In this document: piece by piece, positions 297 through 31,520 of the stretch
Position numbering within the stretch: position 1 is the stretch's first letter
Layout of the letters: each line of letters opens with the position of its first letter
IMG/VR virus record: IMGVR_UViG_2917870735_000002
DNA from: a virus
Lineage: Duplodnaviria; Heunggongvirae; Uroviricota; Caudoviricetes
Reading direction: 5' to 3' (one strand)
DNA length: 31,520 nucleotides
Notes under the pieces: generated by a model
What the model saw: only the letters and a program-made list of their open reading frames with translations
What the model was told of the DNA's origin: nothing
The model's database searches: none
Position numbers and translations under genes: made by a program

Positions 297-1337
297 CTAA
301 GCTGTCGCGACATTTTTGCGACATTTTAAGGGGTTAAGTCGCACGGCATCTTCAAGGTGGCTTGGGGCGAAATGGGCATAACGCATTGTCATAGTGATGT
401 CAGCGTGGCCGAGAATTTTTTGCAGAACCAGAATGTTTCCGCCGTTCATCATAAAGTGGCTGGCAAATGTATGGCGCAGTACATGGGTAAGCTGGCCGGA
501 GGGGAGTTCAATGCCTGCACGTTCCAGAGCAGAGCGGAAAGCGTTGTAGCAGGGCTTGGGGAACAGAGCGCCTTTTGTTTCAGGTAATTCGGACAGAAGT
601 TCATCATCAAGGGGAATTGTTCTGTTGCGCTTCCCTTTGGTTTTGACGAACGTGACTTTACCCCCGGCGATCTGGGAGCTTTTCAGCGTTGCCGCCTCAT
701 TCCACCTTGCGCCGGTAGCAAGGCAGATTTTGACAACTAATTCTAGGTACTTAACTTTACTTCGTTTGCATTCCAGTAAAAGCCGATCAATTTCTTCGGT
801 AGTGAGGAAAGCCATTTCGGTTTCATCAGTACGATACTGTCTGACGTTTTCTAGTGGGTTGGGTGCTGACCATTCACCAATCCGTTTCAGCTCGTTGAAC
901 ATAGCCAGGAAGTAAGCATGTTCAAGGTTCATAGTTTTCGGGGAAACCTTAGATACTCTGTTGGTACGGGCATAATGCCCATCCAGCCTTTTAGCGCGGT
1001 AGGCTGTGAACAACTGGGCATTAAATTCTGTGGCCAGCGGGAATCCCATGCATTCCGCCGCCCAGGTCATAGCATTTTTACGCTTTTCGCCATTGCTCAA
1101 AGCTACGCCGTGGCGTTCATACCACATGTTGATTAGGTCGCTTAGAGTACGGAGGTCTTTACCCTCGCCAAGCCAGGGGGAGTTCTCCACTTGCTGAAGC
1201 GTATAGTTCTCGTAGGCCAGGGCTTCGCCTTTTGTAGCGAATTTTTTACGAATACGCTTACCGGCTTTACCATTGCTTCGATCCACCGTGTAGAAATCGG
1301 CAATCCACTGGCCATTTGTTAATTTTCTTACAGACAT
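297..1337 (-). CDS. int: tyrosine integrase, P2 Int family
   Basis: 346 aa. N-terminal GKxGKRIRKKF arm-binding motif; catalytic region LATGARWNEA ... HVLRHTFASHF ... LGHADITMTMRYAHF (R, H-x-x-R, Y) as in P2 Int from memory. 3' end faces the left flank, as in P2 where int reads towards attP. Confidence 0.93.
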   Translation of the reverse strand: MSVRKLTNGQWIADFYTVDRSNGKAGKRIRKKFATKGEALAYENYTLQQVENSPWLGEGKDLRTLSDLINMWYERHGVALSNGEKRKNAMTWAAECMGFPLATEFNAQLFTAYRAKRLDGHYARTNRVSKVSPKTMNLEHAYFLAMFNELKRIGEWSAPNPLENVRQYRTDETEMAFLTTEEIDRLLLECKRSKVKYLELVVKICLATGARWNEAATLKSSQIAGGKVTFVKTKGKRNRTIPLDDELLSELPETKGALFPKPCYNAFRSALERAGIELPSGQLTHVLRHTFASHFMMNGGNILVLQKILGHADITMTMRYAHFAPSHLEDAVRLNPLKCRKNVATA

Positions 1338-1340
1338 AGC

Positions 1341-1910
1341 TTAGCTGTTTAAAATGCGTTGTTTTTGCTGCTGAAATTCTTCTTCAGTAAGAATGCCTTC
1401 TGCTTTCATTTCAGCCAAACGTTCAATTTTATCCATGACATCATCAAATGAAGATTTTTCGTTGGAGCTTGTAGGAGCGGTGATAACTTGTGGCTTGTCC
1501 AGACTATTCCTTGTCTCATTAACAAGGTTGGTAAAAGGAATTACGGAGGATTTTATAACGTTTTTTATGGTGTAATTCTGTCCGCTTGTTGAAATCATTA
1601 TCTCACCAAATATCAGTCCAGTCTTTCCGCCAACGCTTACAATGTTACGAAGGCTAATATCGACCTGCTTAACACCAAATATCATCCCTTTATCGAGGAA
1701 GATAACGCGTTGGTTAGTTAAAGTTATTAACCAGGTGTTGCCATCCATCATACCGCTTACTATGCCAAGCGGTTCCTCGCCGGTGTTTAAAACTTCGGGA
1801 AGATGAAAAAATTCTTTTTTTGTACCAAATGGCGTATCTGAAACAGCGGCGGACAATCGTTTCATTTCTACTTTTAATTGGTCTTTAGATGCAGTCTTGT
1901 AATCTATCAT
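1341..1910 (-). CDS. cargo protein with PH-like beta-rich core and SHOCT-like C-terminus; function unknown
   Basis: ORF 1341..1979 trimmed to ATG at 1910 (MIDYKTASK...) with AAGGA about 8 nt upstream. C-terminal IERLAEMKAEGILTEEEFQQQKQRIL resembles SHOCT; central LITLTNQRVIFLDKG...GLIFGEIMISTSG resembles bacterial PH-like domains. Visibly AT-rich versus neighbours. Lies 14 bp after cI stop and 3 bp before int start, so co-transcribed with the repressor. Confidence 0.7.
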   Translation of the reverse strand: MIDYKTASKDQLKVEMKRLSAAVSDTPFGTKKEFFHLPEVLNTGEEPLGIVSGMMDGNTWLITLTNQRVIFLDKGMIFGVKQVDISLRNIVSVGGKTGLIFGEIMISTSGQNYTIKNVIKSSVIPFTNLVNETRNSLDKPQVITAPTSSNEKSSFDDVMDKIERLAEMKAEGILTEEEFQQQKQRILNS

Positions 1911-1924
1911 TATAATTTTCCTTA

Positions 1925-2503
1925 TTATTTTATAGTTAAGATAATACGACCTAAAATTTTTATATCTTCGATAGCGCAATCAAATGCCATCCCAACGCCA
2001 CTCACTCGAACTTTGCCTACGGGGATGCGCGTAAGGGTTCTCACACTTGTTTTTCCTTCAATTTCAACTAACCAATCATCGTCGTAAACTTCGGGAAAGT
2101 GTTGATCAACAATGTACTGCATTGCGTTGTCAATCACACAGATTGGATTCTGTGGTAAAGGCTTACCAGGTAAAAAAGTAACCTTATCGAGCATTAGCAA
2201 ACCGGAATCATAGAGTTTTCCGTCCACAATCTTCTTACGCGGCAGTTTCATGATGTCTAATTCGTCATCGTTAAACTTTCTTCCTTGCCCAGTCGCAAGC
2301 CATTCCAGAGTTGCTCCCGTTTCAGCCATGCATCTAACAACGATATCTGCTGGAAAAAAATCCCTCTTGTAGCGATTAGCCAGGCTGCTACTTGCTATAT
2401 CAAGATGTTCGGCCAGGGCTAATTTTGTGTTGAAACCATACGCCTGGATGACTCTGTCCAAGACTTCTGATCCGCCATGAGAAAATTCAATTTGTAGCTT
2501 CAC
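1925..2503 (-). CDS. cI: immunity repressor, phage 186 CI-like (192 aa)
   Basis: GTG start at 2503. N-terminal helix-turn-helix-like segment (GFNTKLALAEHLDIASSSLANR). Length matches the 192-aa 186 CI as I recall. Position between int and a divergent Cox/Apl-like gene. Confidence 0.8.
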   Translation of the reverse strand: MKLQIEFSHGGSEVLDRVIQAYGFNTKLALAEHLDIASSSLANRYKRDFFPADIVVRCMAETGATLEWLATGQGRKFNDDELDIMKLPRKKIVDGKLYDSGLLMLDKVTFLPGKPLPQNPICVIDNAMQYIVDQHFPEVYDDDWLVEIEGKTSVRTLTRIPVGKVRVSGVGMAFDCAIEDIKILGRIILTIK

Positions 2504-14255: not shown

Positions 14256-14956
14256 TTGCTGGTGGCGAGCTGAATAAAAAACAGCTGGCCGAATTGCGCA
14301 AGGCACTGGCCAGCATGGAGCTGCCGCCGAGAAAACGGCAGCGTCTGATCTGGCGTCTGGCCAAATATGGCGTGATTGCTGCGGCAAAACGGCATGTGCG
14401 CAATCAGGAATCCCCGGATGGCAAGTGGCCGGGACGTAAGACAAAACGCAAAGGGAAGATGCTGCGCAACCTGCCAAAGCTGCTGCATATCCGTGAAATG
14501 CCAGAAATTCAGGCTGTGCGGATCTATTTACAGGGTGGTGGATACCGGAACGGGGAAGCGCCGGTACCAGCCGGAACGGTGGGGTACGCGCAACAAAACG
14601 GAATGCGCGTAAAGGTCAGCCGCAGTAATCAGCCACGGAAGGCAGAGGCCGGGAAAATGGCGACGCCTGCCCAGGCCAAAAAATTACGGGCGCTGGGGTA
14701 CCGGGTGAAAACCGGTAAGAGATGGAAAAAGCCCACACTGGGCGAAATCACCAAAACGATGCCATACAGCCAGTCGGGGCTGCTGATTCGAAAACTCAGT
14801 AGTAAAGCCGTGAAAACCAGCTGGACAGTGGATCTTCCTGCTCGTGTGTTTCTGGGCATGAATGATGATGAATTTGACAAGGCGCTGGCGCGTCAGCTTC
14901 AGGCCATCGGCTTTGGCTGGGACGTTAAGGCGCAGGATATTAAGGGGAAAGCATGA
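14252..14956 (+). CDS. phage virion morphogenesis protein (P2 gpS / Mu G-like family)
   Basis: 234 aa, basic; RKRQRLIWRLAKYGVIAAAKRHVRNQESPDGKWPGRK resembles the virion-morphogenesis family signature as I recall. ATGA coupling to upstream gene. Confidence 0.55.
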   Translation: MIAGGELNKKQLAELRKALASMELPPRKRQRLIWRLAKYGVIAAAKRHVRNQESPDGKWPGRKTKRKGKMLRNLPKLLHIREMPEIQAVRIYLQGGGYRNGEAPVPAGTVGYAQQNGMRVKVSRSNQPRKAEAGKMATPAQAKKLRALGYRVKTGKRWKKPTLGEITKTMPYSQSGLLIRKLSSKAVKTSWTVDLPARVFLGMNDDEFDKALARQLQAIGFGWDVKAQDIKGKA

Positions 14957-16080
14957 CCTGGCCAATTGTGACCGTAAACCAGGTAAATCAGCTGATGGGT
15001 GAAACCAATGAGGTGGAACGCACACTGCTGTTTATCGGCACGGGTACCAAAAATGTGGGGAAAACGCTGGCGGTGAATGCCCAGAGTGATTTTGATTCAC
15101 TGCTGGGCGAGGAAGCCAGCCCGCTGAAAAATGATGTTCTGGCTGCGCTGGCGAACGCTGGCCAGAACTGGTGGGGGTTCATTCACGTCCTGCCAGCTGA
15201 CGCGGAGGCGGACGCCTGGGTGAAAGCGGTTTTAGCCGCGCAGGTGGTGTGCTCTGTGGAAGGCGTGGTGCTGTCTGACGATGTCACTGCTAAAGCGCAA
15301 GTAAATCAGGCAGTGACGTTACGAACCACCCTGATTTCAAAGTATGGCCGCTGGGTGTGGTTCATTCTGGCCGCACAGGGAGTGCAGGACGAAGAAGCCC
15401 AGGCTGATTACTTGGTTCGCTTGGCCACTCTTCAGGATGGGGTTGCAGAAAAGTCGGTTCAGTTGGTTCCCCGGCTGTGGGGAAATGAACCGGGTGTGCT
15501 GGCTGGTCGTCTGTGTAGCTGTATGGTGACTATTGCAGATAGTCCGGCGAGGGTTAAAACCGGTGCGCTGATGAATTTGGGCAGTGACGAAATGCCGGTT
15601 GATGGTACCGGAGAAGTTCTTGAGTTGGCCACACTTCAGGCGCTGGAAGCACAGCGTTTCAGTGTGCCAATGTGGTACCCGGATTATGACGGTTTTTACT
15701 GGTCAGATGGCCGCACGTTGGACGTTGAGGGCGGCGATTATCAGTCGATTGAAACTTTGCGCGTCGCGGATAAAGCTGCCCGCCGTGTTCGTTTGCTGGC
15801 TATCAGTAAAATCGCTGATCGTTCGCTGAATAGCACGCCAGGAAGTATCGCCGCACATCAGACACTGTTCGCCAGTCCACTGCGCGAAATGTCTACTGCG
15901 GCCAGCATTAATGGGGTGTCATTTCCCGGAGAAGTGAAGCCGCCGCAGGATGGTGATGTATCCATTGTCTGGAAGAACAAAAAGGCAGTTGATATTTACA
16001 TTGTGGTACGTACCTGGGAAGTGCCACTGCAAATCACCATCAGCCTGTTACTGGATGCCAGTCTGGAGGCTATAGCATGA
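14953..16080 (+). CDS. putative contractile tail sheath protein
   Basis: 375 aa, immediately followed by a coupled 151-aa gene and upstream of chaperone and tape measure; size close to P2 FI. Assignment positional; sequence does not obviously match P2 FI. Confidence 0.5.
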   Translation: MTWPIVTVNQVNQLMGETNEVERTLLFIGTGTKNVGKTLAVNAQSDFDSLLGEEASPLKNDVLAALANAGQNWWGFIHVLPADAEADAWVKAVLAAQVVCSVEGVVLSDDVTAKAQVNQAVTLRTTLISKYGRWVWFILAAQGVQDEEAQADYLVRLATLQDGVAEKSVQLVPRLWGNEPGVLAGRLCSCMVTIADSPARVKTGALMNLGSDEMPVDGTGEVLELATLQALEAQRFSVPMWYPDYDGFYWSDGRTLDVEGGDYQSIETLRVADKAARRVRLLAISKIADRSLNSTPGSIAAHQTLFASPLREMSTAASINGVSFPGEVKPPQDGDVSIVWKNKKAVDIYIVVRTWEVPLQITISLLLDASLEAIA

Positions 16081-16532
16081 CCAAACGTATTTCAGGTATG
16101 TCGTTTGACACTTATATGGATGGCGAACTGATCCATATCGAGAAAATTACGCTCGATATTACGGATAACAGCGTTGCCGCCCAGACGCGTGGCGTCCCTG
16201 ATGGGTATGTAGATGGCGATGTTGCCGCCGAAGGGGAGATTGAAGTCAGTTCAAAAACTCTTCAGGTGCTGACAACCAAAGCCCGCGCAGCGGGTTCATG
16301 GCGCGGACTTCCACCACTTGATTTTCTTTTCTATGCCAAAGCCAGTAGCGAAGAAATGAAGGTGGAGACGTTCGGCAATAAATTGCAGGTCAGCAACCTG
16401 CTGGATATTGATCCGAAGGGGGGCGGCGTGACCACGCACAAAATCAAATATTTCGTGACCAGTCCTAAATTCGTCAACATTAACGGTGTGCCGTATCTGG
16501 AAGCGGAAGCTACAGAAAACCTGATCGGATAA
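16077..16532 (+). CDS. putative tail tube protein
   Basis: 151 aa, ATGA-coupled to the sheath-like gene; size in tail-tube range. Positional assignment. Confidence 0.5.
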   Translation: MTKRISGMSFDTYMDGELIHIEKITLDITDNSVAAQTRGVPDGYVDGDVAAEGEIEVSSKTLQVLTTKARAAGSWRGLPPLDFLFYAKASSEEMKVETFGNKLQVSNLLDIDPKGGGVTTHKIKYFVTSPKFVNINGVPYLEAEATENLIG

Positions 16533-16542
16533 GGACATCGCA

Positions 16543-16845
16543 ATGCAAGAACATGAAAAGAGTCTGTATTCACTGCTAGTTATTGGGGGATTGATTGCTG
16601 TCGGCAATGTGCTGAACAGCAATGACCCGATTACGCCCCGCCTGTTTGCTGGCCGTGTGATCCTGGGCAGTCTGGTTTCTGTGGTAGCAGGGACGGCGTT
16701 GATTCAGATCCCGGATGCCAGTCCGCTGGCCATTCAGGGGCTGGGGGCTGCGTTAGGGATCGCTGGGTATCAAGCGGTGGAAGTGTGGCTGCGCAGGCGT
16801 GCTGTGGGAAAGCAGGATGGGAGCAAAAATAATGACTCTCAGTGA
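16543..16845 (+). CDS. holin
   Basis: 100 aa; ATG 16543 with AAGGA upstream; three hydrophobic segments then charged tail RRRAVGKQDG; directly upstream of endolysin. Confidence 0.65.
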   Translation: MQEHEKSLYSLLVIGGLIAVGNVLNSNDPITPRLFAGRVILGSLVSVVAGTALIQIPDASPLAIQGLGAALGIAGYQAVEVWLRRRAVGKQDGSKNNDSQ

Positions 16846-17236
16846 AAAACAGCAATTGTTTACTGTCATGGTGGCCAATCTGATCCTCTGGGCAGAAGAA
16901 CATGGCTACCGACTGACATTCGGTGAGGCTTACCGTACACCAGAACAGGCTGCGCTGAACGAGAAGAAAGGCAGTGGTATTCCTAACAGTCTGCACACCC
17001 AGCGGTTGGCGGTGGATTTCAATCTGTTCGTGAACGGTCAGTACAAAACCCGTACAGAAGATTATCAGCACTGGGGGAATACTGGGAATCACTGGGTGGT
17101 TCCTGGGGCGGACGCTTCAAATCCAGACCTGATGGTAATCATTTCAGTCTGGAACATAACGGGGTGCGCTGATGAGCAGCGGGCAGTGGTTGGTTGTGGT
17201 GGCGCTGGCGTTTGTCTGGGGCTGGCTAACCGCTGA
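16832..17236 (+). CDS. endolysin, peptidase M15-like (134 aa)
   Basis: ATG 16832 with GGGAG 8 nt upstream (track ORF from GTG 16799). H-x6-D motif (SLHTQRLAVD) and downstream His (GNHW) consistent with M15 zinc peptidases. Confidence 0.68.
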   Translation: MTLSEKQQLFTVMVANLILWAEEHGYRLTFGEAYRTPEQAALNEKKGSGIPNSLHTQRLAVDFNLFVNGQYKTRTEDYQHWGNTGNHWVVPGADASNPDLMVIISVWNITGCADEQRAVVGCGGAGVCLGLANR

Positions 17237-17510
17237 CTGGCGGCGTGATAGCTTAGAGCTGGCAATCAATACAGCGGCGCAGGTGGCCGGTAATGAATCG
17301 CGAAAAGCAATGCAGGGTATTGCCAGTGATTCGGCCAGAGCGCTGGAAGATAAACTGGAGGCGTTAAAAAATGTGGCACCGCGAGAGATACGCACTGAAG
17401 TGCTTAAGCCTGTTTTTACCAGTCGTTGCCTGTCTGATGAGTTTGTCAGCATGTACAACCGTGCCGCAACCGGTACCGAACGTGCGTTATCAGGAAAATC
17501 TGAAAACTAA
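17172..17510 (+). CDS. i-spanin (Rz-like)
   Basis: 112 aa; N-terminal TM (WLVVVALAFVWGWLTA) followed by charged helical periplasmic region; overlaps endolysin 3' end and contains the o-spanin start. Confidence 0.65.
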   Translation: MSSGQWLVVVALAFVWGWLTADWRRDSLELAINTAAQVAGNESRKAMQGIASDSARALEDKLEALKNVAPREIRTEVLKPVFTSRCLSDEFVSMYNRAATGTERALSGKSEN

Positions 17511-17670
17511 ATGTGCCACGCAGTTGCCGCGCCTGAATGGTGCGACAGGAAAAGACTCAGCGGAATTACTGACGATTTATCTTGAGTTATATGGTCAGTG
17601 TGCTGCACGTCATAATCAGTTAGTGGATGAAATTATTTTAAGAGAGAGAGTTATTGATGGAACAAATTAA
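17371..17670 (+). CDS. o-spanin (Rz1-like lipoprotein), partly embedded in the i-spanin gene
   Basis: 99 aa in a different frame from the i-spanin; signal peptide with lipobox LSAC (Cys at residue 28); ATG 17371 with GGAG 10 nt upstream. Overlapped architecture like P2 lysB/lysC. Confidence 0.6.
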   Translation: MWHRERYALKCLSLFLPVVACLMSLSACTTVPQPVPNVRYQENLKTKCATQLPRLNGATGKDSAELLTIYLELYGQCAARHNQLVDEIILRERVIDGTN

Positions 17671-17914
17671 ACTGTGTGTTTGTGGTGTTGAAATTATTTT
17701 TGAACCAAACCAGACTGCCTACAATAAATTTATTAATGAAATGGCAATGGACAATAAGGTTGCTCCTGCGCATAACTATCTGACACGAATTGTTGCGATT
17801 GAAAGTAAAGCCTCACTTTGTGAAGTATTAAATCGTCCGGGTGCTGCACTTCAACTGGTTGGCAAAGTAAATGATATTTATGCGCCTGAACTAGAAATTG
17901 AAGTAAAAAACTGA
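17657..17914 (+). CDS. tail assembly chaperone (P2 gpE-like), short form
   Basis: 85 aa from ATG 17657 (GAGAGAG upstream); immediately upstream of tape measure; LNRPGAALQLVG resembles the RPG block of gpE as I recall. Ends in slippery heptamer A AAA AAC (17905-17911). Confidence 0.55.
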   Translation: MEQIKLCVCGVEIIFEPNQTAYNKFINEMAMDNKVAPAHNYLTRIVAIESKASLCEVLNRPGAALQLVGKVNDIYAPELEIEVKN

Positions 17915-18105
17915 CAAAGCGAGTCCATGAAATTGAAATGAATGGACTCGAACAATATTTAATTCTACGCCGTCATTATTTACCACATGGTCAGGATTCC
18001 GTTGATGATATCGCCGCCGCTATCTGGCTGGACAATCGTCACTGGGAATATACGGGAATAGCTGTGGCCAATGGTGTGGCAAAAGCATTTAAAGGCAGTG
18101 AATGA
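17657..18105 (+). CDS. tail assembly chaperone, predicted -1 programmed frameshift fusion product (E+E'-like)
   Basis: The -1 frame is open from 17902 to stop 18103-18105 and overlaps the short form only across A AAA AAC. Extension reads KKLTKRVHEIEMNGLEQYLILRRHYLPHGQDSVDDIAAAIWLDNRHWEYTGIAVANGVAKAFKGSE; its TGA overlaps the tape measure ATG (ATGA). Confidence 0.4.
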
Positions 18106-19292
18106 AACAATTAGATTTTACATTAAGCCTGATTGATAAATTATCCCGCCCGTTAAAACAGGTGCAAGGTAACGTCACCGGCTTTGCGGAAAAATCAAAA
18201 GCAGCCTTTATGCAGATCGGTGGTGGCGTTCTGGCGCTGGCAGGTATCGGGATGGAGATCAAAAGTGCTTTATCACCGGCAATTGAAATGTATGACGCGC
18301 TGAATGATGCCGCCGCAAAAGGTATTGATGATTCGGCACTTAAGACAGTTCAGCGTGATGCCCTGCGCTTCAGTACAACCTATGGTGCCAGTGCGGTGGA
18401 GTTTGTTAAATCCACGGAAAATATTAACGCTTCCATTGCCGGACTGACGGGTAATGAACTGCCGAAGGTGACGAAAGTCGCCAATACCCTGGCTTTTGCG
18501 CTCAAGTCCACAGCGGCGGACACGGCGGAATTTATGGGGCAGATGTTCGGTAACTTTTCCGCCGATGCCACCAGACTGGGCAAGGTTGAATTTGCCGAGC
18601 AGCTGGCAGGCAAGATGGTTTATATGCGCAAAACCTTTGGCACAGAAATGGCCACTATCAAGGATTTGATGGAAGGTGCGCGCGGCGTCGGGACTAACTA
18701 CGGCGTGGGACTGGATGAACAACTGGCCGTGCTGGGGCAACTTCAGCGGACGCTGGGAACAGAAGCCAGCAGCGCCTATGAAGGGTTTATGACCGGCGCG
18801 GTTGATGGCGCTAAAAAGCTGGGGCTGTCCTTTACTGACTCCACCGGCAAAATGTTGTCCATGCCTGAAATGCTGATCAAGTTGCAAGGCAAATATGGCA
18901 AAAGCCTTGAAGGGAATCTGAAAGCCCAGGCGGAACTGGATGCAGCCTTTGGTAACAGTTCTGCAGTGGTTAAACATCTTTACGGCAATGTCGCGTTACT
19001 TCAGCGGAACATCACCGAACTGGGCAGTACGGACGGCCTGAAGCGTACCCAGGAAATGGCACAAAAAATGGTTAAGCCGTGGGATCGCTTTGTACAAATC
19101 CTGAAAGCCATTCAGACCGTGATCGGACTGACGCTGATCCCGGTGCTGTATCCGGTTCTGAATCGCCTGGCTGATATGGGGCAGACCTTTGCTCGTTGGA
19201 TGCAGTTATTTCCTAACATTGCCCGTGTGATTGGTTATGCGTCGGTGGCACTACTGAGCTTTGCCGCCGTGGGTGCGGTTGCAATATCGTGA
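18102..19292 (+). CDS. tail tape measure protein, N-terminal ORF
   Basis: 396 aa, Ala/Gly-rich helical with hydrophobic C-terminal segment; directly follows chaperone. Confidence 0.7.
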   Translation: MKQLDFTLSLIDKLSRPLKQVQGNVTGFAEKSKAAFMQIGGGVLALAGIGMEIKSALSPAIEMYDALNDAAAKGIDDSALKTVQRDALRFSTTYGASAVEFVKSTENINASIAGLTGNELPKVTKVANTLAFALKSTAADTAEFMGQMFGNFSADATRLGKVEFAEQLAGKMVYMRKTFGTEMATIKDLMEGARGVGTNYGVGLDEQLAVLGQLQRTLGTEASSAYEGFMTGAVDGAKKLGLSFTDSTGKMLSMPEMLIKLQGKYGKSLEGNLKAQAELDAAFGNSSAVVKHLYGNVALLQRNITELGSTDGLKRTQEMAQKMVKPWDRFVQILKAIQTVIGLTLIPVLYPVLNRLADMGQTFARWMQLFPNIARVIGYASVALLSFAAVGAVAIS

Positions 19293-20068
19293 TGGGGGTA
19301 TCCAGATTCATCATGATGGGATTACGTGGGATCTGGGGGGCGTTAACGGCGGTTACGAAAATCTACACGGCGACTGTCTGGCTGGCGCAAATGGCGGTAA
19401 TCGCCTGGAATACCACGCTGAAGTTTTTACGCGGCGCGTTACTGGCGGTACGCATGGCCGCAATGATGACCGGAATTGGTATCAATCTGATGAGCTGGCC
19501 AATCCTGCTTGTGATTGGTGCCATTGCGCTGCTTGTTGCTGGTTGTTATCTGCTGGTTAAGCACTGGAACACGATAAAAGCATCGGTGATGAATACCGAA
19601 GCCTTCCAGGCATGTGCTGCCGTAGTGAAATGGCTAGCGGGGATCTTTGTTTTAGCCTGGCAATATGTCAGTGATGGATGGAACAGTTTTATTTCTATGC
19701 TGACAGGATTTTCACCATCTGAGGCATTAAATGGAATGGCCACCGGTATTATGTCACTGTTTGATATTGTCTGGAACTCAATCAAAGAGGGATTTCTTAA
19801 GTCGTGGAACTGGATTGTTCAGAAACTGAATGAAATTCCCGGCGTGGATATTTCTCTGGCGAGTGAAACCTTACAGCCGTTAACTGGTAATACGCTGTCT
19901 ACGGGGGGCGATTTAAAAGGTGTGGATAATGGCGGTATCAGTAAAACAATCAGCAGCAACACAACATCCGTAATCGATAACAGCCGGAAAATTGGTGAAG
20001 TGCATTTCCATACCAAAGAAGCATTATCTCCACTCCAGCTTATGGAATGGCAGGAGCTTGGTGCATGA
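19292..20068 (+). CDS. tape measure protein C-terminal portion, or separate hydrophobic tail protein
   Basis: 258 aa from ATG 19292 (track gives GTG 19289); -1 frame relative to preceding ORF, joined at TGATG; multiple hydrophobic segments typical of tape-measure central regions. Confidence 0.55.
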   Translation: MGVSRFIMMGLRGIWGALTAVTKIYTATVWLAQMAVIAWNTTLKFLRGALLAVRMAAMMTGIGINLMSWPILLVIGAIALLVAGCYLLVKHWNTIKASVMNTEAFQACAAVVKWLAGIFVLAWQYVSDGWNSFISMLTGFSPSEALNGMATGIMSLFDIVWNSIKEGFLKSWNWIVQKLNEIPGVDISLASETLQPLTGNTLSTGGDLKGVDNGGISKTISSNTTSVIDNSRKIGEVHFHTKEALSPLQLMEWQELGA

Positions 20069-20394
20069 GTAATATTCTTTATATTGATTTGCTGATTCAG
20101 GGCGGTGATTTTGTTCTGAATACCGGTAATGAACCTGAATTATGTAATAACCGAAAAAGTATCGGACAGGACATTATTCATTCCATTATTGAAAGTGGTT
20201 TGGCTACGGAATTAATAGCCGAACGTAGCCCGACAATGAGAGCGGATATTTTTACCCGTATGGAATTACTGATTGAATATGATGAACGCATTGTGCCAGG
20301 TACGGTGGAAATCAGTGAAGAAAGTCAGAAGCGGCTGTGGGTAACCGCGAGTACATACGATTTTGGTGGGATCTCTGCGCAGGTGGATTTATGA
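20065..20394 (+). CDS. putative baseplate assembly protein (gpW position, 109 aa)
   Basis: ATG 20065 overlapping upstream stop (ATGA), GGAG 9 nt upstream; immediately precedes baseplate J-like gene. Confidence 0.45.
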   Translation: MSNILYIDLLIQGGDFVLNTGNEPELCNNRKSIGQDIIHSIIESGLATELIAERSPTMRADIFTRMELLIEYDERIVPGTVEISEESQKRLWVTASTYDFGGISAQVDL

Positions 20395-21575
20395 CGGAAA
20401 AACCGCAGGTCGATTTTGAAGAAGTGGTGAAGGACAGCGGTATGCCGGTAACGGAATCCGAAGTGTGGGAACACTTCAATGCGATTGCAGCGGATGAGGG
20501 AATTATCACCAATACATCCCGAATGTCACCGTTCTGGCGATTAATCACCGCCATTGTGACCGCTCCTGTGATGTGGCTGAAAGACGTTCTGGTATTGACC
20601 GTGCTGGCTAATATGTTTGTGGCAACGGCCAGCGGGAGCATGTTGCGTCTGCTGGCCTGGGCTGTGAACGTCACGGCAAAACCGGCGAGCGCTGCACAGG
20701 GGGTGATCCGCTTCTTCAAAGAAGATGCAAAGGCCGTTGTGACGGTGAAAGCCGGGACGGTTATCCAGACAGAACGCATTAACGGGCGAGTTTATGAGCT
20801 GGCCACCACTGAAGATGTGGTGATCGCTTCCAGTGCAGCCAGCGCATTACTGCCGGTGCAAGCCACTGGTACCGGGGGCGCTTATAACCTTGCGCCTGGA
20901 TACTACCGCATTCTGCCGGTGGCGGTCAGTGGTATCAGCCATGTGGCCAGTGAGGAAAACTGGCTGACCGTGCCGGGAGCTGACGAGGAGAGCGATGATG
21001 AACTGCGCGAGCGTTGTCGCAATCAGTTCAATCTGGTGGGGAATTACCACACTGATGCGGTTTATCGCTCAATGATCGCCAGCGTTGCTGGGTTGAGTAT
21101 CGATAGGATTTTCTTTGAGCATGAAGCACCGAGGGGACCTGGAACAGCAAACGCATTTCTATTGCTGGATAGTGGGGTGACCTCGGCACCGTTCTTGGAT
21201 GCAGTGAATGACTATATCAACACCCAGGGGCATCACGGACATGGTGATGATATGCAGTGTTATCCCATTCCGGAAACGTTTCACGATCTGGCCGTTACGG
21301 TTTATGTCGAGAATCTGAATAATTTCAGCGATGAGGAAAGGAAAAGCCTGAAGGATGGCGTTGAAAACATTATCCGCTGCGCTTTTCGTGAAAATGCTGA
21401 TTTTGACGTCAGAAAGACGTGGCCATATTCACGGTTTTCATTTTCGCAACTGGGGCGGGAAATTCATAAAACCTTTGCACAGACGGAATCACTGACATTT
21501 TCGCTCGGAGACATTACTAGTGAACTGGGCGTGCCGCGTCTGAAATCACTGACGGTGAATATTGATAATGAATGA
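20391..21575 (+). CDS. baseplate assembly protein J-like
   Basis: 394 aa from ATG 20391 (overlaps upstream stop); position W-J-I-fibre as in P2; size in range for baseplate J family. Confidence 0.6.
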   Translation: MTEKPQVDFEEVVKDSGMPVTESEVWEHFNAIAADEGIITNTSRMSPFWRLITAIVTAPVMWLKDVLVLTVLANMFVATASGSMLRLLAWAVNVTAKPASAAQGVIRFFKEDAKAVVTVKAGTVIQTERINGRVYELATTEDVVIASSAASALLPVQATGTGGAYNLAPGYYRILPVAVSGISHVASEENWLTVPGADEESDDELRERCRNQFNLVGNYHTDAVYRSMIASVAGLSIDRIFFEHEAPRGPGTANAFLLLDSGVTSAPFLDAVNDYINTQGHHGHGDDMQCYPIPETFHDLAVTVYVENLNNFSDEERKSLKDGVENIIRCAFRENADFDVRKTWPYSRFSFSQLGREIHKTFAQTESLTFSLGDITSELGVPRLKSLTVNIDNE

Positions 21576-27316: not shown

Positions 27317-27913
27317 TCAGTTGTTGTGTAGTTCAAGATAGTTAGAGGTGGAGTGCGTATCAAGCGGTAGTAGTTGTGCGGCTCTGCGGGTTATAAAGAC
27401 ACTATTGGCAGGAATGTTTCGGTTAACGAATGACATAGCACCAATTGTCACATTATCACCAATGGTCAGATCATCACCGATGATGCATGAATTTGCGCCA
27501 ATCTCGACATTGTCTCCGATCCTGATGGCTTTGATTCCTTCAACTGTTTTTAATCCAATCGTTGTGTTTTGTCGGATACGAACATTTTTTCCAATCACAG
27601 CCTGGGGACAAATGACTATTCCAACGAAGTGATAAATTTTGAATTTTTCCCCGATCTGTGCCCCCAATCCAATATCAGTATTGTATTTTGAAACAAGTCT
27701 CCGGTGGATTCTTCGTGCCCACTTAATACTTGATTTCCCTCCCTGACAGTAAAGGCAATTCGCTATCCTCCACCAACACATGAATCTGTGTCCGGGTTGT
27801 CTCCAGCAACGTAGTATGATTCTCCTCCAGGAGAAATTTTTACTGCTGTGCAGTATGTCCGCGCACAACAACTTCTTCATATCCTCATAATGCGACTTTT
27901 TGTTGTTGCTCAT
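27317..27913 (-). CDS. hexapeptide-repeat acetyltransferase, serine acetyltransferase (CysE)/WcaB-like
   Basis: 198 aa; ATG 27913 with AGGGAGA upstream. Helical N-terminus (HRFMCWWRIANCLY) then left-handed beta-helix repeats (DIGLGAQIGEKFKIYHFVGIVICPQAVIGKNVRIRQNTTIG ... IGDNVEIGANSCIIGDDLTIGDNVTIGAMSFV) paralleling the CysE core pattern. AT-rich; convergent with the last tail gene. Confidence 0.75.
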   Translation of the reverse strand: MSNNKKSHYEDMKKLLCADILHSSKNFSWRRIILRCWRQPGHRFMCWWRIANCLYCQGGKSSIKWARRIHRRLVSKYNTDIGLGAQIGEKFKIYHFVGIVICPQAVIGKNVRIRQNTTIGLKTVEGIKAIRIGDNVEIGANSCIIGDDLTIGDNVTIGAMSFVNRNIPANSVFITRRAAQLLPLDTHSTSNYLELHNN

Positions 27914-27928
27914 AAATTATTCTCCCTA

Positions 27929-27945
27929 ATAATCCTGAGGATTAT
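27929..27945. promoter_or_regulatory. 17-bp perfect palindrome ATAATCCTGAGGATTAT adjoining the acetyltransferase RBS
   Basis: 8-bp arms around a central G, verified base by base; 16-32 bp upstream of the start codon at 27913. Confidence 0.45.
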
Positions 27946-28466
27946 CGTACATGAGAATGATCTGATTTTCTGCTAACAACATTAAGTTATGTGGTCGGAA
28001 CTGATAATTGGCTACTTAATCCCAAATAATTAGTTGAATTACTAACAAAACATCTTTCTTATCTTGTCATAGATGTCGGCAGAGGGATTATTAACCCTTT
28101 AATAACAAACCTAACTTGGTCACTAAGTATAAAAGAACAGAATTGTAGCGTTGCGCTGGTATGGTGATATGGCGACAAAATAAATCCTTTGCAGACAAAA
28201 ACGGCGCTACACCGCACCCGCCTGCGGTTTCTGGATCTGGAAAATTTTTCAGTTTTATTTTTTTACAAACAGCACCGCCAGACCGCGCCACGGTTGGCTG
28301 CTTGCCAAAGAACAGGAACTGAAAAGATTGAAAAGAATTTCAGCATTTTTCAGTTTAGAGGATCTGTAAAGGATCTAAGTGGAAAGGCAAGCAATTGAAA
28401 TATAATAATAAATTTTATATTTGTGGAGTGGAGAAGATCAAATGTCGAAGGCAATGTGTAGGAGGA

Positions 28467-28499
28467 AAAACCCGCAATGCCAGTTGTGGTGCGGGTTTT
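28467..28499 (-). terminator. rho-independent terminator-like hairpin (10-bp stem AAAACCCGCA/TGCGGGTTTT, 13-nt loop)
   Basis: Perfect stem verified; on the minus strand the stem ends in UUUU followed by UCCUCC; about 70 bp downstream of the minus-strand 122-aa gene. Confidence 0.55.
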
Positions 28500-28566
28500 A
28501 GGGGGATTAGATTAAATTCAGAAAGTGAAATTAGCATACCTATACTTTAAGTGCGCCAATAGGTAA

Positions 28567-28935
28567 TCAATTTTCATCAATATGACTTTCGTTTTCATCT
28601 TTGTACCATGTGGGCAAATTATCTGTAATTTGTTCATTAATTACATTTTGAGTGTCAGCAGGTAGCAGTTTAAAAATCTCAAAAATAAAGTTTGATATTT
28701 CAACTTTTACATCAGCAGTAGGGCCATAAAAATCATCTTTAACATAATCCCATTTATGCTTTATTAAAGTTGATTCTGGATATTGTATTTTGACTAAGCC
28801 AATTTGTTTGTAAATCCAATTTATGGCGCTATCTGCTCCAGAGAAGGCCTCATTACCGCTATTAATAAATGGCCCAACATCATAGACACGTTTAGTGTTA
28901 TTATCTAAAACTCTTACATAACAATTGGTTGCCAT
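28567..28935 (-). CDS. hypothetical small acidic protein (122 aa)
   Basis: ATG 28935 with AAGGTGG upstream; 15 bp after the 104-aa gene on the same strand; AT-rich; acidic C-terminus. Confidence 0.6.
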   Translation of the reverse strand: MATNCYVRVLDNNTKRVYDVGPFINSGNEAFSGADSAINWIYKQIGLVKIQYPESTLIKHKWDYVKDDFYGPTADVKVEISNFIFEIFKLLPADTQNVINEQITDNLPTWYKDENESHIDEN

Positions 28936-28950
28936 ACCCCACCTTTTTTA

Positions 28951-29265
28951 TTAGCCAATGTACCGTACACGATTGCCGTTATATAATGGCCATTCGTTTA
29001 GCAAATCTCTAAGTAGTCTTTCCATGTGAGTTGCATCTTCTGCTGCATTTTTTCCAACATAGTCATTTCCACGTTGGAAAGTTTCATAACGCATTGCCAT
29101 TGATGGGGTGTTTTCTTCAAAGCCAATTGGAGACAAATCATTTATTTGTGTAACTGCTACATCGCCAGATTTAGATACCCAGAGAATATGATGACCTGCG
29201 TTATCGTCGCAAGCAGAGATTAGTTGTGAGAGTTGGCTTACTGTAGGGTTATTGTTTAAGTTCAT
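28951..29265 (-). CDS. hypothetical small protein (104 aa)
   Basis: ATG 29265 with AAGAGG 8 nt upstream; first gene of a two-gene cassette. Confidence 0.6.
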   Translation of the reverse strand: MNLNNNPTVSQLSQLISACDDNAGHHILWVSKSGDVAVTQINDLSPIGFEENTPSMAMRYETFQRGNDYVGKNAAEDATHMERLLRDLLNEWPLYNGNRVRYIG

Positions 29266-29474
29266 TTAAATACCTCTTTTAATAAGATTTAGTTATAACG
29301 TAAAACAAGCCACAAATTGATTATCTATCCTCATAGGCTGCATATCAACTTTAGATTTTAGGCGGTGTGGATCGTGGTAAGCCAGAGATTATAGAGATAA
29401 GCCCGCTTGTAAGAACTGGCGCGGGCTGCACGTAAATTTATGAAATCTTCACAACTGAAATTTGTTCAGCGAAA

Positions 29475-30101
29475 TTACAGCACTGTTTCTGCGGAACGGG
29501 ACGCTTCTTTTGTCGCATTGCCAGTGATAAAAGGCTGCTTTTCCTGATATTCCGACTGCGGTAGTTTGGATGTATACACTGGCGTGATCTTGTTTTTATA
29601 AACGGTGTCACTGGGGATGTTCTGAAGCACCAGTGAATGCGCACCAATGGTGACATTGTTTCCGATTGTAATCTTGCCGCCCAGAATGGACGAGTTACAG
29701 CCAATATCAACATGATCACCAATGATTATCATTGCGTCGACACTGTCGGTGCGTAACCCTATGGTGATGCCTTGCTTCAGGTCGGCGAAATCACCAATCA
29801 CGCAATTGTCAGTAATGACAATACCGTTCAAATGAGCAATGTTTAACCCCTTGCCGATTTTGCACGACAGAGAAATATCAACGCTGTGCCGGTACTTGAG
29901 GCGGTTTTCAATTCTGCGGGCAATGCGCTTTTTGAACTTACTATTCTGGCCATAGAGCCATGAAGCAATACGCCACCAGAACAGGAAGTGCTTCTTCTGG
30001 TTGCGTCGGGTACGAAGTAACGCTTTACGCCATGAAAAGGCTTTGTCATGGCCAATGACTTCAAGGCGGATACATTCTTTACGATGGTCGTAGGAAGTCA
30101 T
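29475..30101 (-). CDS. hexapeptide-repeat acetyltransferase, CysE/WcaB-like (divergent paralog of 27317..27913)
   Basis: 208 aa; shares N-terminal motif (FSWR..., WWRIASWLY) and beta-helix repeats (IGDFADLKQGITIGL ... IGDHVDIGCNSSILGGKITIGNNVTIGAHSLV) with the other acetyltransferase. Confidence 0.75.
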   Translation of the reverse strand: MTSYDHRKECIRLEVIGHDKAFSWRKALLRTRRNQKKHFLFWWRIASWLYGQNSKFKKRIARRIENRLKYRHSVDISLSCKIGKGLNIAHLNGIVITDNCVIGDFADLKQGITIGLRTDSVDAMIIIGDHVDIGCNSSILGGKITIGNNVTIGAHSLVLQNIPSDTVYKNKITPVYTSKLPQSEYQEKQPFITGNATKEASRSAETVL

Positions 30102-30210
30102 GATTAGTCATCCTGACAGAATATTATAGGTACTTGAAATTATGCTTCCATTTGATTGCTAATGGAAGAGAATGGCCATATTTTGAATTTTATAAAAAAT
30201 ATGAGGGAGT

Positions 30211-30245
30211 ATCACCCTTACCACTCATGGAGTGGTAAGGGTGAT
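30211..30245. repeat. 35-bp inverted repeat ATCACCCTTACCACTC-atg-GAGTGGTAAGGGTGAT (16-bp perfect arms)
   Basis: All 16 pairs verified; between the 411-aa gene stop (30285) and acetyltransferase 2 start (30101). On the minus strand a T6 run lies about 10 nt after the stem. Confidence 0.8.
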
Positions 30246-30284
30246 TGAACTAAGTAAATATTGTAGAATAATCGAGCTAAAGTT

Positions 30285-31520
30285 TTAGAGGTGAAACCAA
30301 GAATAAGTAGCTTCATCTTTTTCAAAAATATACTGTATATGTAATTCAACTAACCAGAGACTAACTATTTTAAGCGTAAGTTTATTACATAAATGAATAT
30401 ACCTTGTATAACTTATTTCTCTTTCAGCTCCTGTACCCCCACTTTTGTATCGAACAGATTCTCCATCATGCCATATTGATGCGTGATGCGAGCCATTCCT
30501 AATTGTAGATTCTAAATCATCTTCACAAAAGGCGGTAAATAATTCATTGTCTTTAAATGGATTTATCTTTCCTTCTTTATTAACATCTTTTATATATTTG
30601 TTTAGTGTCATTGTTTTGAATTGATCAAAACTCCTTCCATTAATAATGTTATTAATGCAGGCTAATATTGTCATGTTAGATGTTAAAGTTTCATAAGCAT
30701 CACCATAGTAATTACGGATTTTATCAAAGTTTTTTGAACTGATGATTTTGGTGTCAATTTCATCGTTGTTTATTCTTGCGTAATATATTAGTTGGCCAAA
30801 ATGATCTCGACGAGACATGAAGTCTGATATGATGTTTATATATCTTTGTTGATTTTCAACCTGTAGGTTTTGTTTATAAAATTTATAGAAATCGTCCAGT
30901 AATCCATTTTTTTTAAGCTCGTCAATTTCTAGCTTTATAGGTTCGGCAATGTCATGAACACGAGGGTAGAAAAGCCAATCTAAAAACTCATAACTAATTG
31001 AAGTGAAAGAGTACATTGAATCCTTTTTGTAAAGAGGTAATTCTTCATTTCGTGACTGCATGTATAATTTTGCTGTACGCTGTGCTTTTTCTATTTCCCC
31101 ATTGTTAATAAGTTTTGCAATGGATTTTAAATAAGCCCATTTTGACGGAGCGTTAGGAATATCAAATTGGTGTGAAATGCTGATAATTCTTTGTCCAGGT
31201 GGCATCCTCATATGCTTATGGAGCATGCTCGTTAACTCAAGGGATGGGAAAGTTGTTGGTGAATGAATTTCATCTTTGTCGAAAGCACAAGCTGGGTGAA
31301 AATTAACTACTTTATGTTCTAAGCTATATTCAACAATAATACAATTTTCTTCAACTTGAATGTAAGCGCTGGGGGGAATAGCTTTTACAGCAAAAACAAT
31401 TGGCATATTACATTCAAAACAATCCATGAAATGCTTTTGATATTTATCAATTCCGACCCCAACCCTTACACGATAAATAGCGTTACATGACTGACATTGG
31501 ATGCTATTACCGATTACCAT
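30285..31520 (-). CDS. hypothetical Cys-rich protein (at least 411 aa); zinc-ribbon-like N-terminus; 5' end at window edge
   Basis: ORF runs to the last base; first ATG is at 31520-31518 so the true start may lie outside. N-terminus has CQSC-x22-CFEC spacing; very AT-rich; no recognisable catalytic motif. Confidence 0.6.
   Translation of the reverse strand: MVIGNSIQCQSCNAIYRVRVGVGIDKYQKHFMDCFECNMPIVFAVKAIPPSAYIQVEENCIIVEYSLEHKVVNFHPACAFDKDEIHSPTTFPSLELTSMLHKHMRMPPGQRIISISHQFDIPNAPSKWAYLKSIAKLINNGEIEKAQRTAKLYMQSRNEELPLYKKDSMYSFTSISYEFLDWLFYPRVHDIAEPIKLEIDELKKNGLLDDFYKFYKQNLQVENQQRYINIISDFMSRRDHFGQLIYYARINNDEIDTKIISSKNFDKIRNYYGDAYETLTSNMTILACINNIINGRSFDQFKTMTLNKYIKDVNKEGKINPFKDNELFTAFCEDDLESTIRNGSHHASIWHDGESVRYKSGGTGAEREISYTRYIHLCNKLTLKIVSLWLVELHIQYIFEKDEATYSWFHL

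What the first reader, a model, noticed from the sequence alone, without database searches (positions are those of the whole stretch)
17657..18105. Predicted -1 programmed ribosomal frameshift in the tail assembly chaperone (slippery A AAA AAC at 17905-17911)
The 85-aa chaperone ORF ends two codons after the heptamer A AAA AAC. The -1 frame is open from exactly this point for a further 66 codons, and that extension ends in a TGA overlapping the tape measure ATG. This is the conserved G/GT (lambda) and E/E+E' (P2) arrangement; the 55-aa downstream ORF is absent from the track. The chaperone is more AT-rich than its neighbours, so an inserted moron is a weaker alternative.
Basis: partly seen in the sequence, partly recalled or inferred. 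Interest (0 to 1): 0.45.

Follow-up and report, generated by a model that had tools for sequence, protein, structure and literature searches.

The report
Frameshift signal in phage tail chaperone
This is the usual -1 ribosomal frameshift site that lets a phage make a short and a long tail assembly chaperone from one start codon; here it sits in an HP1/ESSI-2-type prophage, is real and strongly conserved, and is of a well-known kind.

Summary
An 85-aa ORF (17657-17914, Pfam Phage_TAC_10) ends with the in-frame heptamer A AAA AAC (17905-17911), and TGA follows directly. The -1 frame opens one codon before the heptamer. It runs 64 codons past the slip point to a TGA (18103-18105) that overlaps the tape measure ATG (18102).

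The heptamer alone is not significant: 12 copies in the window against 9.5 expected. Comparison with relatives decides the question. In 254 related loci (HP1, phiO18P, SI7, PV94, ACA1 and Pseudomonas relatives) the extension, Pfam DUF6890, always follows the chaperone. In 253 of them it lies in the -1 frame, with exactly one in-frame A AAA AAN heptamer in the overlap.

The extension evolves as coding sequence right from the slip site and has no conserved start codon. The ATG at 17938 is unique to this window. An 8-9 bp stem-loop lies 8 nt downstream and is kept, with compensatory changes, in the ESSI-2-like clade.

The proteins show no detectable sequence similarity to P2 E/E+E'. The system is therefore analogous to P2 E/E+E' and lambda G/GT and belongs to neither family. 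A relative, phage ACA1, already carries this frameshift annotation.

Verdict: new member of a known kind, low interest. The prophage itself has 1-nt deletions in its endolysin and tape measure genes.

The parts
17657..17914 (+). Tail assembly chaperone ORF (the short, 'G-like' product; 85 aa, stop included)
17899..17901 (+). TGA in the -1 frame, which closes that frame upstream. With the zero-frame stop it leaves a 13-nt window (17902-17914) in which the frame change must happen.
   Evidence: The same 13-nt overlap occurs in 83 of the 253 -1-frame loci.
17905..17911 (+). Slippery heptamer A AAA AAC, correctly phased as X XXY YYZ
   Evidence: It is invariant in 84 close loci. Family-wide there is exactly one in-frame heptamer per locus: AAAAAAC 144, AAAAAAG 80, AAAAAAA 29.
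17912..17914 (+). Zero-frame stop codon directly after the heptamer; a possible 'shifty stop' stimulator
   Evidence: A stop is adjacent in 104/104 unique AAAAAAC sequences (TGA 52, TAA 31, TAG 21) and in 26/27 AAAAAAA sequences. It lies 7 codons away in 76/76 AAAAAAG sequences. A stimulatory role is inferred.
17911..18105 (+). -1 frame extension (the 'T-like' domain, 64 aa plus stop). Joined to the chaperone it gives a 149-aa fusion.
   Evidence: Pfam PF21830 DUF6890 at E 2e-23 and phrog_7050. Nucleotide diversity at codon positions 1/2/3 is 0.115/0.084/0.344 in 58 unique sequences. The same pattern holds in the 9 codons before ATG 17938. The AF2 model is helical with pLDDT 76.
17920..17950 (+). 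Stem-loop: 9 bp (17920-17928 with 17942-17950), 13-nt loop, 8-nt spacer after the heptamer. Candidate stimulator of the frameshift.
   Evidence: MFE is -14 kcal/mol, z -4.2, and 0 of 200 shuffles fold as well. In 33 distinct ESSI-2-like sequences 8 pairs are always paired. Two pairs show changes on both sides (AU to GC in 14 sequences, GC to AU in 1), and slid controls pair in 9-40% of cells.
18102..20068 (+). Tape measure gene, whose ATG overlaps the stop of the extension. In this window it is split into 18102-19292 and 19289-20068.
   Evidence: PF10145 and phrog_28. Relatives have a single 655-aa ORF. The window lacks one C at about 19282.

Best explanation
The site is a -1 programmed ribosomal frameshift that yields two tail assembly chaperones from the single start at 17657.

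Products and slip (inferred from sequence and conservation):
- Most ribosomes terminate at TGA 17912-17914 and release the 85-aa chaperone.
- A minority slip back one base on A AAA AAC (17905-17911).
- The slip could be tandem, with tRNA-Lys and tRNA-Asn moving together.
- Alternatively peptidyl-tRNA-Asn could slip from AAC to AAA while the slowly decoded stop codon waits in the A site.
- Either route continues in the -1 frame at CTG 17911 for 64 more codons and gives a 149-aa fusion (...EIEVKN-LTKRV...).
- The stem-loop at 17920-17950, 8 nt downstream, and the adjacent stop codon probably raise the slip frequency of this rather weak heptamer.

Function (inferred by analogy with lambda gpG/gpGT and P2 gpE/gpE+E'):
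- The shared N-terminal domain coats the tape measure protein.
- The C-terminal DUF6890 domain of the rare long form recruits the tail tube protein.
- Neither product ends up in the virion.

Shown here: the sequence anatomy, the family assignment, the chaperone fold, the conservation of the arrangement, the coding constraint on the extension and the conserved hairpin.

Inferred: that the slip occurs, its frequency, and the protein partners.
For: 1. Anatomy. The heptamer is correctly phased inside the 13-nt overlap of the two frames, and the extension ends on the tape measure ATG.
3. Conservation. 84 of 84 close loci keep AAAAAAC and a 63-64-codon -1 extension, which in nearly all ends in an ATGA overlap with the tape measure ATG. 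HP1 (40% identity), phiO18P, SI7, YenM324, PV94, ACA1 and PfPro keep GTA AAA AAN and a homologous extension. Across 254 loci the T domain always follows the chaperone. It is in the -1 frame in 253, each with one in-frame heptamer.
4. The extension is translated from the slip site. Third-position diversity is three to four times that of positions 1 and 2, including the 9 codons upstream of ATG 17938.
5. There is no independent start. ATG at codon 10 occurs in 1 of 58 unique sequences, and 29 have no ATG at all. Database entries for DUF6890 are 45-71 aa with scattered starts, and none is fused.
6. Stem-loop. It lies 8 nt downstream, has z -4.2, and keeps pairing with compensatory changes. A spacer of 5-8 nt is typical for -1 frameshift stimulators (PMC3458567).
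7. Precedent. GenBank OR438928 (phage ACA1) annotates a joined CDS in this family as a 'projected programmed frameshift analogous to that in phage P2'. The lambda and P2 mechanisms are described in PMC5009743 and PMC3091744.
Against: - There is no experimental evidence for this phage group. Nothing here measures a fusion protein.
- A AAA AAC is much less shift-prone in E. coli than A AAA AAG (PMC5009743), so efficiency may be low. A low rate is nevertheless what the lambda G:GT ratio of about 30:1 requires.
- The stem-loop is conserved only in the ESSI-2-like clade. It is not at the same place in YenM324, HP1 or PV94.
- Its covariation rests on two pairs among related sequences, and both arms are also coding sequence.
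- No SD-like element is visible upstream of the heptamer (sequence).
- The prophage in this window has frameshifted endolysin and tape measure genes. The signal may therefore no longer serve a working tail.
- Single-sequence statistics are unremarkable.
Confidence: 0.87

Rival explanations
1. Transcriptional slippage. RNA polymerase occasionally adds one A in the A6 run (17905-17910). A subset of mRNAs then encodes the same fusion in frame, without any ribosomal slip.
For: - The invariant element across the family is the A6 run, while the seventh base varies among C, A and G.
- One locus (L105) has A8 where its relatives have A7. That puts the two domains in frame, so the run is prone to length change at some level.
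- Poly-A runs are known sites of programmed transcriptional realignment (PMC3711429).
Against: - Known programmed transcriptional realignment uses runs longer than 7 A or 8 T (PMC3711429). Here the run is 6.
- The run is always phased as X XXY YYZ (253/253). Polymerase slippage would not require that phasing.
- A conserved hairpin 8 nt downstream and an invariably adjacent stop codon are features of ribosomal signals, not transcriptional ones.
Confidence: 0.07
2. There are two separate genes. The 55-aa ORF (ATG 17938 to 18105) is translated on its own as a stand-alone DUF6890 protein, which is how gene callers and PGAP treat it.
For: - The window has an ATG at 17938.
- Databases list DUF6890 as a stand-alone family.
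Against: - That ATG is present in 1 of 58 unique relatives, and 29 of them have no ATG in the extension.
- PGAP has to invoke a CTG start exactly at the slip site.
- That position is not conserved as a start-like codon in PV94, ACA1 or PfPro, where the extension begins with Ile or Ala.
- Called lengths range from 45 to 71 aa.
- The 9 codons upstream of the ATG are under coding constraint in the -1 frame.
- The ATG has no SD upstream and lies in the loop of the hairpin.
Confidence: 0.04
3. It is a broken gene or a sequencing error. Originally one chaperone gene, it is now interrupted by a 1-nt indel in a homopolymer.
For: - The window does carry two real 1-nt deletions in neighbouring genes.
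- Homopolymers are error-prone.
Against: The same two-frame arrangement is present in 253 of 254 loci from several genera, with all three stop codons used after the heptamer. An accident would not be preserved like this.
Confidence: 0.01
4. It is an inserted AT-rich moron unrelated to tail assembly.
For: GC is 36-40% over 17500-18100, against about 50-57% in the flanks.
Against: - The gene is a Phage_TAC_10 member with a chaperone fold.
- It occupies the same slot before the tape measure gene in HP1, phiO18P, SI7, PV94, ACA1, PfPro and YenM324.
- No promoter or terminator excess flanks it.
Confidence: 0.01

Closest known systems
Pseudoalteromonas phage ACA1 gp36/gp36a, with HP1 orf26 and the rest of the Phage_TAC_10 (PF10963) chaperones of HP1-type Peduoviridae
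   Same: - Same Pfam family for the chaperone, and a homologous -1 extension.
- Same position before the tape measure gene.
- Same A AAA AAN heptamer.
- ACA1 already carries a joined CDS annotated as a projected programmed frameshift.
   Different: - ACA1 uses A AAA AAA, and its zero-frame stop is 7 codons downstream.
- It is about 33% identical to the window protein.
- The ESSI-2-like clade adds a conserved hairpin 8 nt downstream.
- In RefSeq the ESSI-2-like phages and E. coli prophages have no joined CDS.
Phage P2 gpE / gpE+E' (-1 frameshift at T TTT TTG; Christie et al. 2002, Xu et al. 2004, as cited in PMC3091744)
   Same: - Same virus family (Peduoviridae).
- Same gene slot before the tape measure gene.
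- Similar sizes: 91 and 142 aa in P2, 85 and 149 aa here.
- A -1 shift near the end of the short ORF, with the extension ending at or overlapping the tape measure start.
   Different: - Different Pfam families for both domains: PF10109 + PF06528 against PF10963 + PF21830.
- No BLASTP alignment, and hhalign probability is 0.1%.
- A different heptamer.
- P2 is reported to have no downstream structure (PMC3091744).
- In P2 the chaperone directly follows the tube gene. Here a lysis cassette lies between them.
Phage lambda gpG / gpGT (-1 frameshift at G GGA AAG)
   Same: The logic is the same: a short abundant chaperone and a rare frameshift-extended form, encoded between the major tail protein gene and the tape measure gene. 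G binds the tape measure and T binds the tail tube protein (PMC5009743).
   Different: - Lambda has a non-contractile tail.
- Its proteins are larger (G about 140 aa and GT about 280 aa, from my own knowledge).
- No lambda G or T Pfam family was hit.
- The heptamer differs.
E. coli dnaX frameshift signal (A AAA AAG with an upstream SD-like element and a downstream hairpin)
   Same: An A-rich heptamer of the same form with a downstream stem-loop. The Pseudomonas branch of this family uses exactly A AAA AAG (PMC3711429).
   Different: - No upstream SD-like element is visible here.
- The seventh base is C, which is much less shift-prone in E. coli (PMC5009743).
- In dnaX the shifted frame ends quickly and gives the shorter product. 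Here the shift gives the longer product.

Membership tests
Frameshift-coupled tail assembly chaperone pair (lambda G/GT-type arrangement, Xu et al. 2004) | The genes lie between the tail tube (major tail) gene and the tape measure gene, directly upstream of the latter. | tested here: met
   Gene order is sheath 14953-16080, tube 16077-16532, lysis cassette, chaperone 17657-17914, extension, tape measure from 18102. HP1 and the other relatives have the same order.
Frameshift-coupled tail assembly chaperone pair (lambda G/GT-type arrangement, Xu et al. 2004) | The second ORF overlaps the end of the first in the -1 frame and has no conserved start codon of its own. | tested here: met
   The overlap is 13 nt. 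It is in the -1 frame in 253 of 254 loci. An ATG is present at this position in only 1 of 58 unique sequences.
Frameshift-coupled tail assembly chaperone pair (lambda G/GT-type arrangement, Xu et al. 2004) | A canonical X XXY YYZ slippery heptamer lies in phase inside the overlap and is conserved in relatives. | tested here: met
   A AAA AAC at 17905-17911. There is one in-frame A AAA AAN per locus in 253 of 253.
Frameshift-coupled tail assembly chaperone pair (lambda G/GT-type arrangement, Xu et al. 2004) | The N-terminal product has the tail assembly chaperone fold. | tested here: met
Frameshift-coupled tail assembly chaperone pair (lambda G/GT-type arrangement, Xu et al. 2004) | Both the short and the frameshifted long protein are made at a fixed low ratio, both are needed for tail assembly, and both are absent from virions. 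| not testable with these tools
   This needs mass spectrometry, a reporter assay and genetics.
Phage_TAC_10 (PF10963) plus DUF6890 (PF21830), the HP1-type chaperone | Scores above the Pfam gathering thresholds for both domains. | tested here: met
   PF10963 scores 116.5 bits against a cut-off of 25.7. PF21830 scores 82.3 bits against 23.6. phrog_1214 and phrog_7050 also match.
P2 gpE / gpE+E' (PF10109 Phage_TAC_7 plus PF06528 Phage_P2_GpE) | Detectable sequence homology to P2 E and E'. | tested here: not met
   The Pfam scan of the fusion does not hit PF10109 or PF06528, whereas P2 E+E' hits both. BLASTP finds no alignment. hhalign gives probability 0.1%. The P2 side was a single sequence, so very remote homology is not excluded.
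P2 gpE / gpE+E' (PF10109 Phage_TAC_7 plus PF06528 Phage_P2_GpE) | T TTT TTG slip site. | tested here: not met
   The site here is A AAA AAC. P2 has TTTTTTG (PMC3091744).
Lambda gpG / gpT protein families | Sequence membership in the lambda G and T Pfam families. | tested here: not met
   Only PF10963 and PF21830 were reported at E <= 0.01.
dnaX-type tripartite -1 frameshift signal | A heptamer plus an upstream SD-like element plus a downstream hairpin. | tested here: inconclusive
   The heptamer and the hairpin are present. No GGAG, GAGG or AGGA core occurs in the 20 nt upstream (read). The hairpin is clade-specific.

The most novel reading that the evidence does not exclude
Within one chaperone family there seem to be two interchangeable designs of frameshift signal.
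- Design 1: the highly shift-prone A AAA AAG. It has no adjacent stop (7 codons away in 76 of 76 unique sequences) and no excess downstream structure (mean z +0.3).
- Design 2: the weaker A AAA AAC or A AAA AAA. A stop codon follows directly in 130 of 131 unique sequences, all three stop codons are used, and downstream structure is significant (mean z -2.3 to -2.9).

If this is more than shared ancestry, the adjacent stop codon is a functional stimulator of the -1 shift. That would be a 'shifty stop' acting on peptidyl-tRNA-Asn/Lys with the hairpin at the mRNA entrance. The family would then be a natural titration series for how phages set the short-to-long chaperone ratio.
Probability: 0.3. 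Interest if true: 0.4.

Novelty: new member of a known kind. Interest (0 to 1): 0.2.

Why it matters
The practical value lies mostly in annotation. In ESSI-2-like and HP1-like prophages of Enterobacteriaceae the long chaperone is not annotated at all. Its C-terminal half is filed as a stand-alone 'DUF6890 family protein' or 'hypothetical protein', with arbitrary start codons.

The evidence here shows that DUF6890 (PF21830, phrog_7050) is the frameshift-encoded C-terminal domain of the Phage_TAC_10 chaperone. That assigns a role to a domain of unknown function and corrects hundreds of gene models.

Biologically it adds one more well-supported case to a textbook phenomenon. It also offers a clade-specific hairpin, and a relation between heptamer type, stop-codon adjacency and downstream structure, that could be tested with simple reporters.

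Tried and rejected
- Single-sequence statistics. The heptamer count and a scan of all ORF ends for in-frame XXXYYYZ show the motif is not unusual on its own. Other hits, such as TTTGGGT at 25550 before the 567-aa ORF, reflect ordinary ATGA gene overlaps.
- Rfam. No family matches 17600-18200.
- NCBIfam. No model hits the fusion.
- Solved structures. There are no sequence relatives in the PDB. Foldseek of the T-domain model gave only meaningless matches to helical proteins, with E above 4.
The two halves were modelled separately instead.
- Homology to P2 E+E'. BLASTP and hhalign were negative.
- Literature. Christie et al. 2002 (PMID 12426340, PMC135442) is not held. No paper in the library mentions DUF6890 or PF10963. 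The ACA1 and Smhb1 papers do not discuss the chaperone frameshift. I could therefore not verify from text whether HP1 orf26 was listed by Xu et al. 2004.
- Promoter and terminator scan around the gene found nothing above the shuffled expectation. This argues against an autonomous moron.
- The hairpin was looked for at the same position in distant relatives and is not conserved there.

Full report
**1. What is in the sequence**

The window is a P2/HP1-type (Peduoviridae) prophage. It runs from an integrase (297-1337, minus strand) through replication, portal, terminase and capsid genes to the tail genes.

Around the finding the gene order is as follows:
- tail sheath 14953-16080 (DUF2586, phrog_907);
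- tail tube 16077-16532 (Phage_HP1_Orf24);
- holin 16543-16845;
- an M15-type endolysin;
- Rz-like and Rz1-like spanins;
- the 85-aa ORF 17657-17914;
- the tape measure gene from 18102.

The closest annotated relatives are the ESSI-2-like phages ESSI2_ev040, ev015 and ev129 (about 92% DNA identity). Similar prophages occur in 38 of 5426 complete E. coli genomes. The 55-aa ORF is 100% identical to a protein recorded from Escherichia marmotae.

**2. Check of the observation**

- The ORF from ATG 17657 ends ...GTA AAA AAC TGA. A AAA AAC (17905-17911) is therefore a correctly phased X XXY YYZ heptamer, and the stop codon follows directly.
- The -1 frame has a TGA at 17899-17901 and is then open to TGA 18103-18105, which overlaps the tape measure ATG at 18102.
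- The two frames overlap by only 13 nt, and the heptamer fills the middle of that overlap.
- From the slip point the extension is 64 codons. The fusion is 149 aa.
- On its own the motif is not statistically unusual. There are 12 AAAAAAC in the window against 9.5 expected, and several ORF ends carry some in-frame XXXYYYZ.

**3. Identity of the two parts**

- The 85-aa protein is Pfam Phage_TAC_10 (PF10963, E 6e-34) and phrog_1214.
- The extension is Pfam DUF6890 (PF21830, E 2e-23) and phrog_7050.
- The extension models as a small helical domain (pLDDT 76). It has no informative structural match.

**4. Comparative evidence**

This is what decides the question.
- All 84 close loci keep AAAAAAC and a 63-64-codon -1 extension, which in nearly all ends in an ATGA overlap with the tape measure ATG. 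The flanking codons vary (GAA/GAG, ATT/ATC/ATA, TGA/TAA).
- Distant relatives keep GTA AAA AAN followed by a homologous -1 extension. These are HP1 (40% identity), phiO18P, SI7, YenM324, PV94, ACA1 and the Pseudomonas phage PfPro.
- I built HMMs of the two domains and searched 255 fetched loci. 254 have the chaperone, and all 254 have the T domain after it.
- In 253 of them the T domain is in the -1 frame, each with exactly one in-frame heptamer in the overlap: AAAAAAC 144, AAAAAAG 80, AAAAAAA 29.
- The single exception (L105) has A8 where its relatives have A7. This fuses the two domains in frame and gives exactly the predicted junction.

**5. The extension is translated from the slip site, not from its own start**

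- In 58 unique ESSI-2-like sequences, nucleotide diversity at codon positions 1/2/3 of the -1 frame is 0.115/0.084/0.344. This is the same pattern as in the chaperone itself (0.110/0.059/0.371).
- The pattern already holds in the nine codons between the heptamer and the window's ATG 17938.
- That ATG is present in this one sequence only. 29 sequences have no ATG anywhere in the extension, and 28 have one only at codon 48.
- Public protein sets hold DUF6890 only as stand-alone calls of 45-71 aa with scattered starts. No fused entries exist.
- PGAP resorts to a CTG 'start' exactly at the slip site.

**6. Possible stimulators**

- A 9-bp stem-loop (17920-17928 with 17942-17950, 13-nt loop) starts 8 nt after the heptamer. 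Its MFE is -14 kcal/mol, z is -4.2, and none of 200 shuffles folds as well.
- In 33 distinct ESSI-2-like sequences, eight pairs are paired in every sequence.
- Two pairs change on both sides: AU to GC in 14 sequences, with one GU intermediate, and GC to AU in one. Partner-slid controls pair in only 9-40% of cells.
- One of these compensatory changes couples a His/Gln-to-Arg replacement with a synonymous Asn change 16 nt away.
- An 8-nt spacer is at the upper end of the usual 5-8 nt range (PMC3458567).
- The hairpin is not found at the same place in YenM324, HP1 or PV94, although PV94 and HP1 have other structures there.
- Family-wide, a stop codon follows AAAAAAC and AAAAAAA heptamers directly in 130 of 131 unique sequences, and all three stop codons are used. 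In AAAAAAG lineages the stop lies 7 codons away in 76 of 76.
- The AAAAAAC and AAAAAAA heptamers also have excess downstream structure (mean z -2.3 and -2.9). AAAAAAG lineages have none (z +0.3; mononucleotide shuffles).
[quoted passage not shown] Slow-to-decode A-site codons favour slippage (same review). This suggests that the weaker heptamers are helped by the stop codon and a hairpin. It is an inference, and shared ancestry of each lineage is an alternative reading.

**7. Mechanism and rivals**

The best explanation is a -1 programmed ribosomal frameshift that makes an 85-aa and a 149-aa chaperone from one start. By analogy with lambda gpG/gpGT, the shared domain binds the tape measure protein and the extension recruits the tube protein (PMC5009743). 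P2 gpE/gpE+E' is the parallel case in contractile tails (PMC3091744).

Rivals:
- Transcriptional slippage on the A6 run would give the same protein and cannot be excluded from sequence. Known cases use longer runs (PMC3711429), and the strict phasing, the hairpin and the adjacent stop all point to the ribosome.
- Independent initiation, a broken gene and an AT-rich moron are each contradicted by the conservation data.

**8. Relation to known systems**

- In organisation this is the lambda G/GT and P2 E/E+E' arrangement.
- In sequence it is neither. P2 E+E' is PF10109 plus PF06528. BLASTP finds nothing and hhalign gives 0.1% probability.
- It is a member of the HP1-type Phage_TAC_10 group.
- For that group the GenBank record of Pseudoalteromonas phage ACA1 already annotates a joined CDS as a 'projected programmed frameshift analogous to that in phage P2'.
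- RefSeq records of the ESSI-2-like phages, HP1, phiO18P, SI7 and PV94, and of the E. coli prophages, do not annotate it.
- I could not read Christie et al. 2002 or Xu et al. 2004. Whether HP1 was listed there remains unverified.

**9. Verdict**

The finding is correct and well supported by comparison, and it is of a well-known kind. Its main use is to correct annotation: DUF6890 is the frameshift-encoded C-terminal domain of the chaperone. The clade-specific hairpin and the relation between heptamer type, stop adjacency and structure are modest leads that simple reporters could test.

In this particular prophage the endolysin and tape measure genes each carry a 1-nt deletion relative to a 97.7% identical relative. 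The same truncated tape measure protein is found in an independent read-set assembly. The element is therefore probably defective, although the frameshift signal itself is intact.

Noticed in passing
window 18102-20068 (break at about 19282): The tape measure gene is split into 396-aa and 259-aa ORFs. One C is missing (GTTGC-AAT against GTTGCCAAT in L005). Relatives have one 655-aa ORF. The exact truncated protein also occurs in an independent Logan assembly (SRR6156173), so the deletion is probably real rather than an assembly error.
   Followed up: partly
window 16799-17236 (break at about 17069): The endolysin gene also has a 1-nt deletion relative to L005. It changes the C-terminal third and lengthens the ORF (113 aa in relatives). 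Together with the split tape measure gene this suggests a decaying prophage.
   Followed up: partly
L105 1449-1456 (IMGVR_UViG_2767802213_000001): A Vibrio-type relative has A8 where its close relatives have A7 at the slip site. This puts the chaperone and DUF6890 in one frame, reading ...KVKK-IDAL.... It could be a homopolymer sequencing error, or a natural variant that makes only the long form.
   Followed up: no
L004 2112-2306 (E. coli CP043414) and proteins P0113-P0149: PGAP annotates the -1 extension as a separate 'DUF6890 family protein' starting at a CTG exactly at the slip site. Database entries for this family range from 45 to 71 aa with arbitrary starts. phiO18P gp37 and SI7 gp15 ('hypothetical protein') are the same mis-called extension.
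   Followed up: yes
L001-L255, slip sites: Heptamer type goes together with the rest of the signal. AAAAAAC and AAAAAAA are directly followed by a stop in 130 of 131 unique sequences and have excess downstream structure. AAAAAAG has its stop 7 codons away in 76 of 76 and no excess structure.
   Followed up: partly
window 19600-20400: A second AT-rich stretch (GC 0.40-0.43) covers the end of the tape measure gene and the next small gene (20047-20394). The cause was not examined.
   Followed up: no
window 1341-1979 (-) and 27317-31520 (-): These are genes not typical of the phage core. A bPH_3 plus SHOCT domain protein lies next to the integrase. Two hexapeptide-repeat (acetyltransferase-like) proteins and an unassigned 411-aa ORF that runs off the right end lie beyond the tail fibre genes. 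They could be cargo or flanking host genes.
   Followed up: no
window 17938-17940: The ATG that creates the 55-aa ORF lies in the loop of the conserved hairpin and is unique to this sequence among 58 unique relatives. It is probably a neutral loop substitution, not a start codon.
   Followed up: yes
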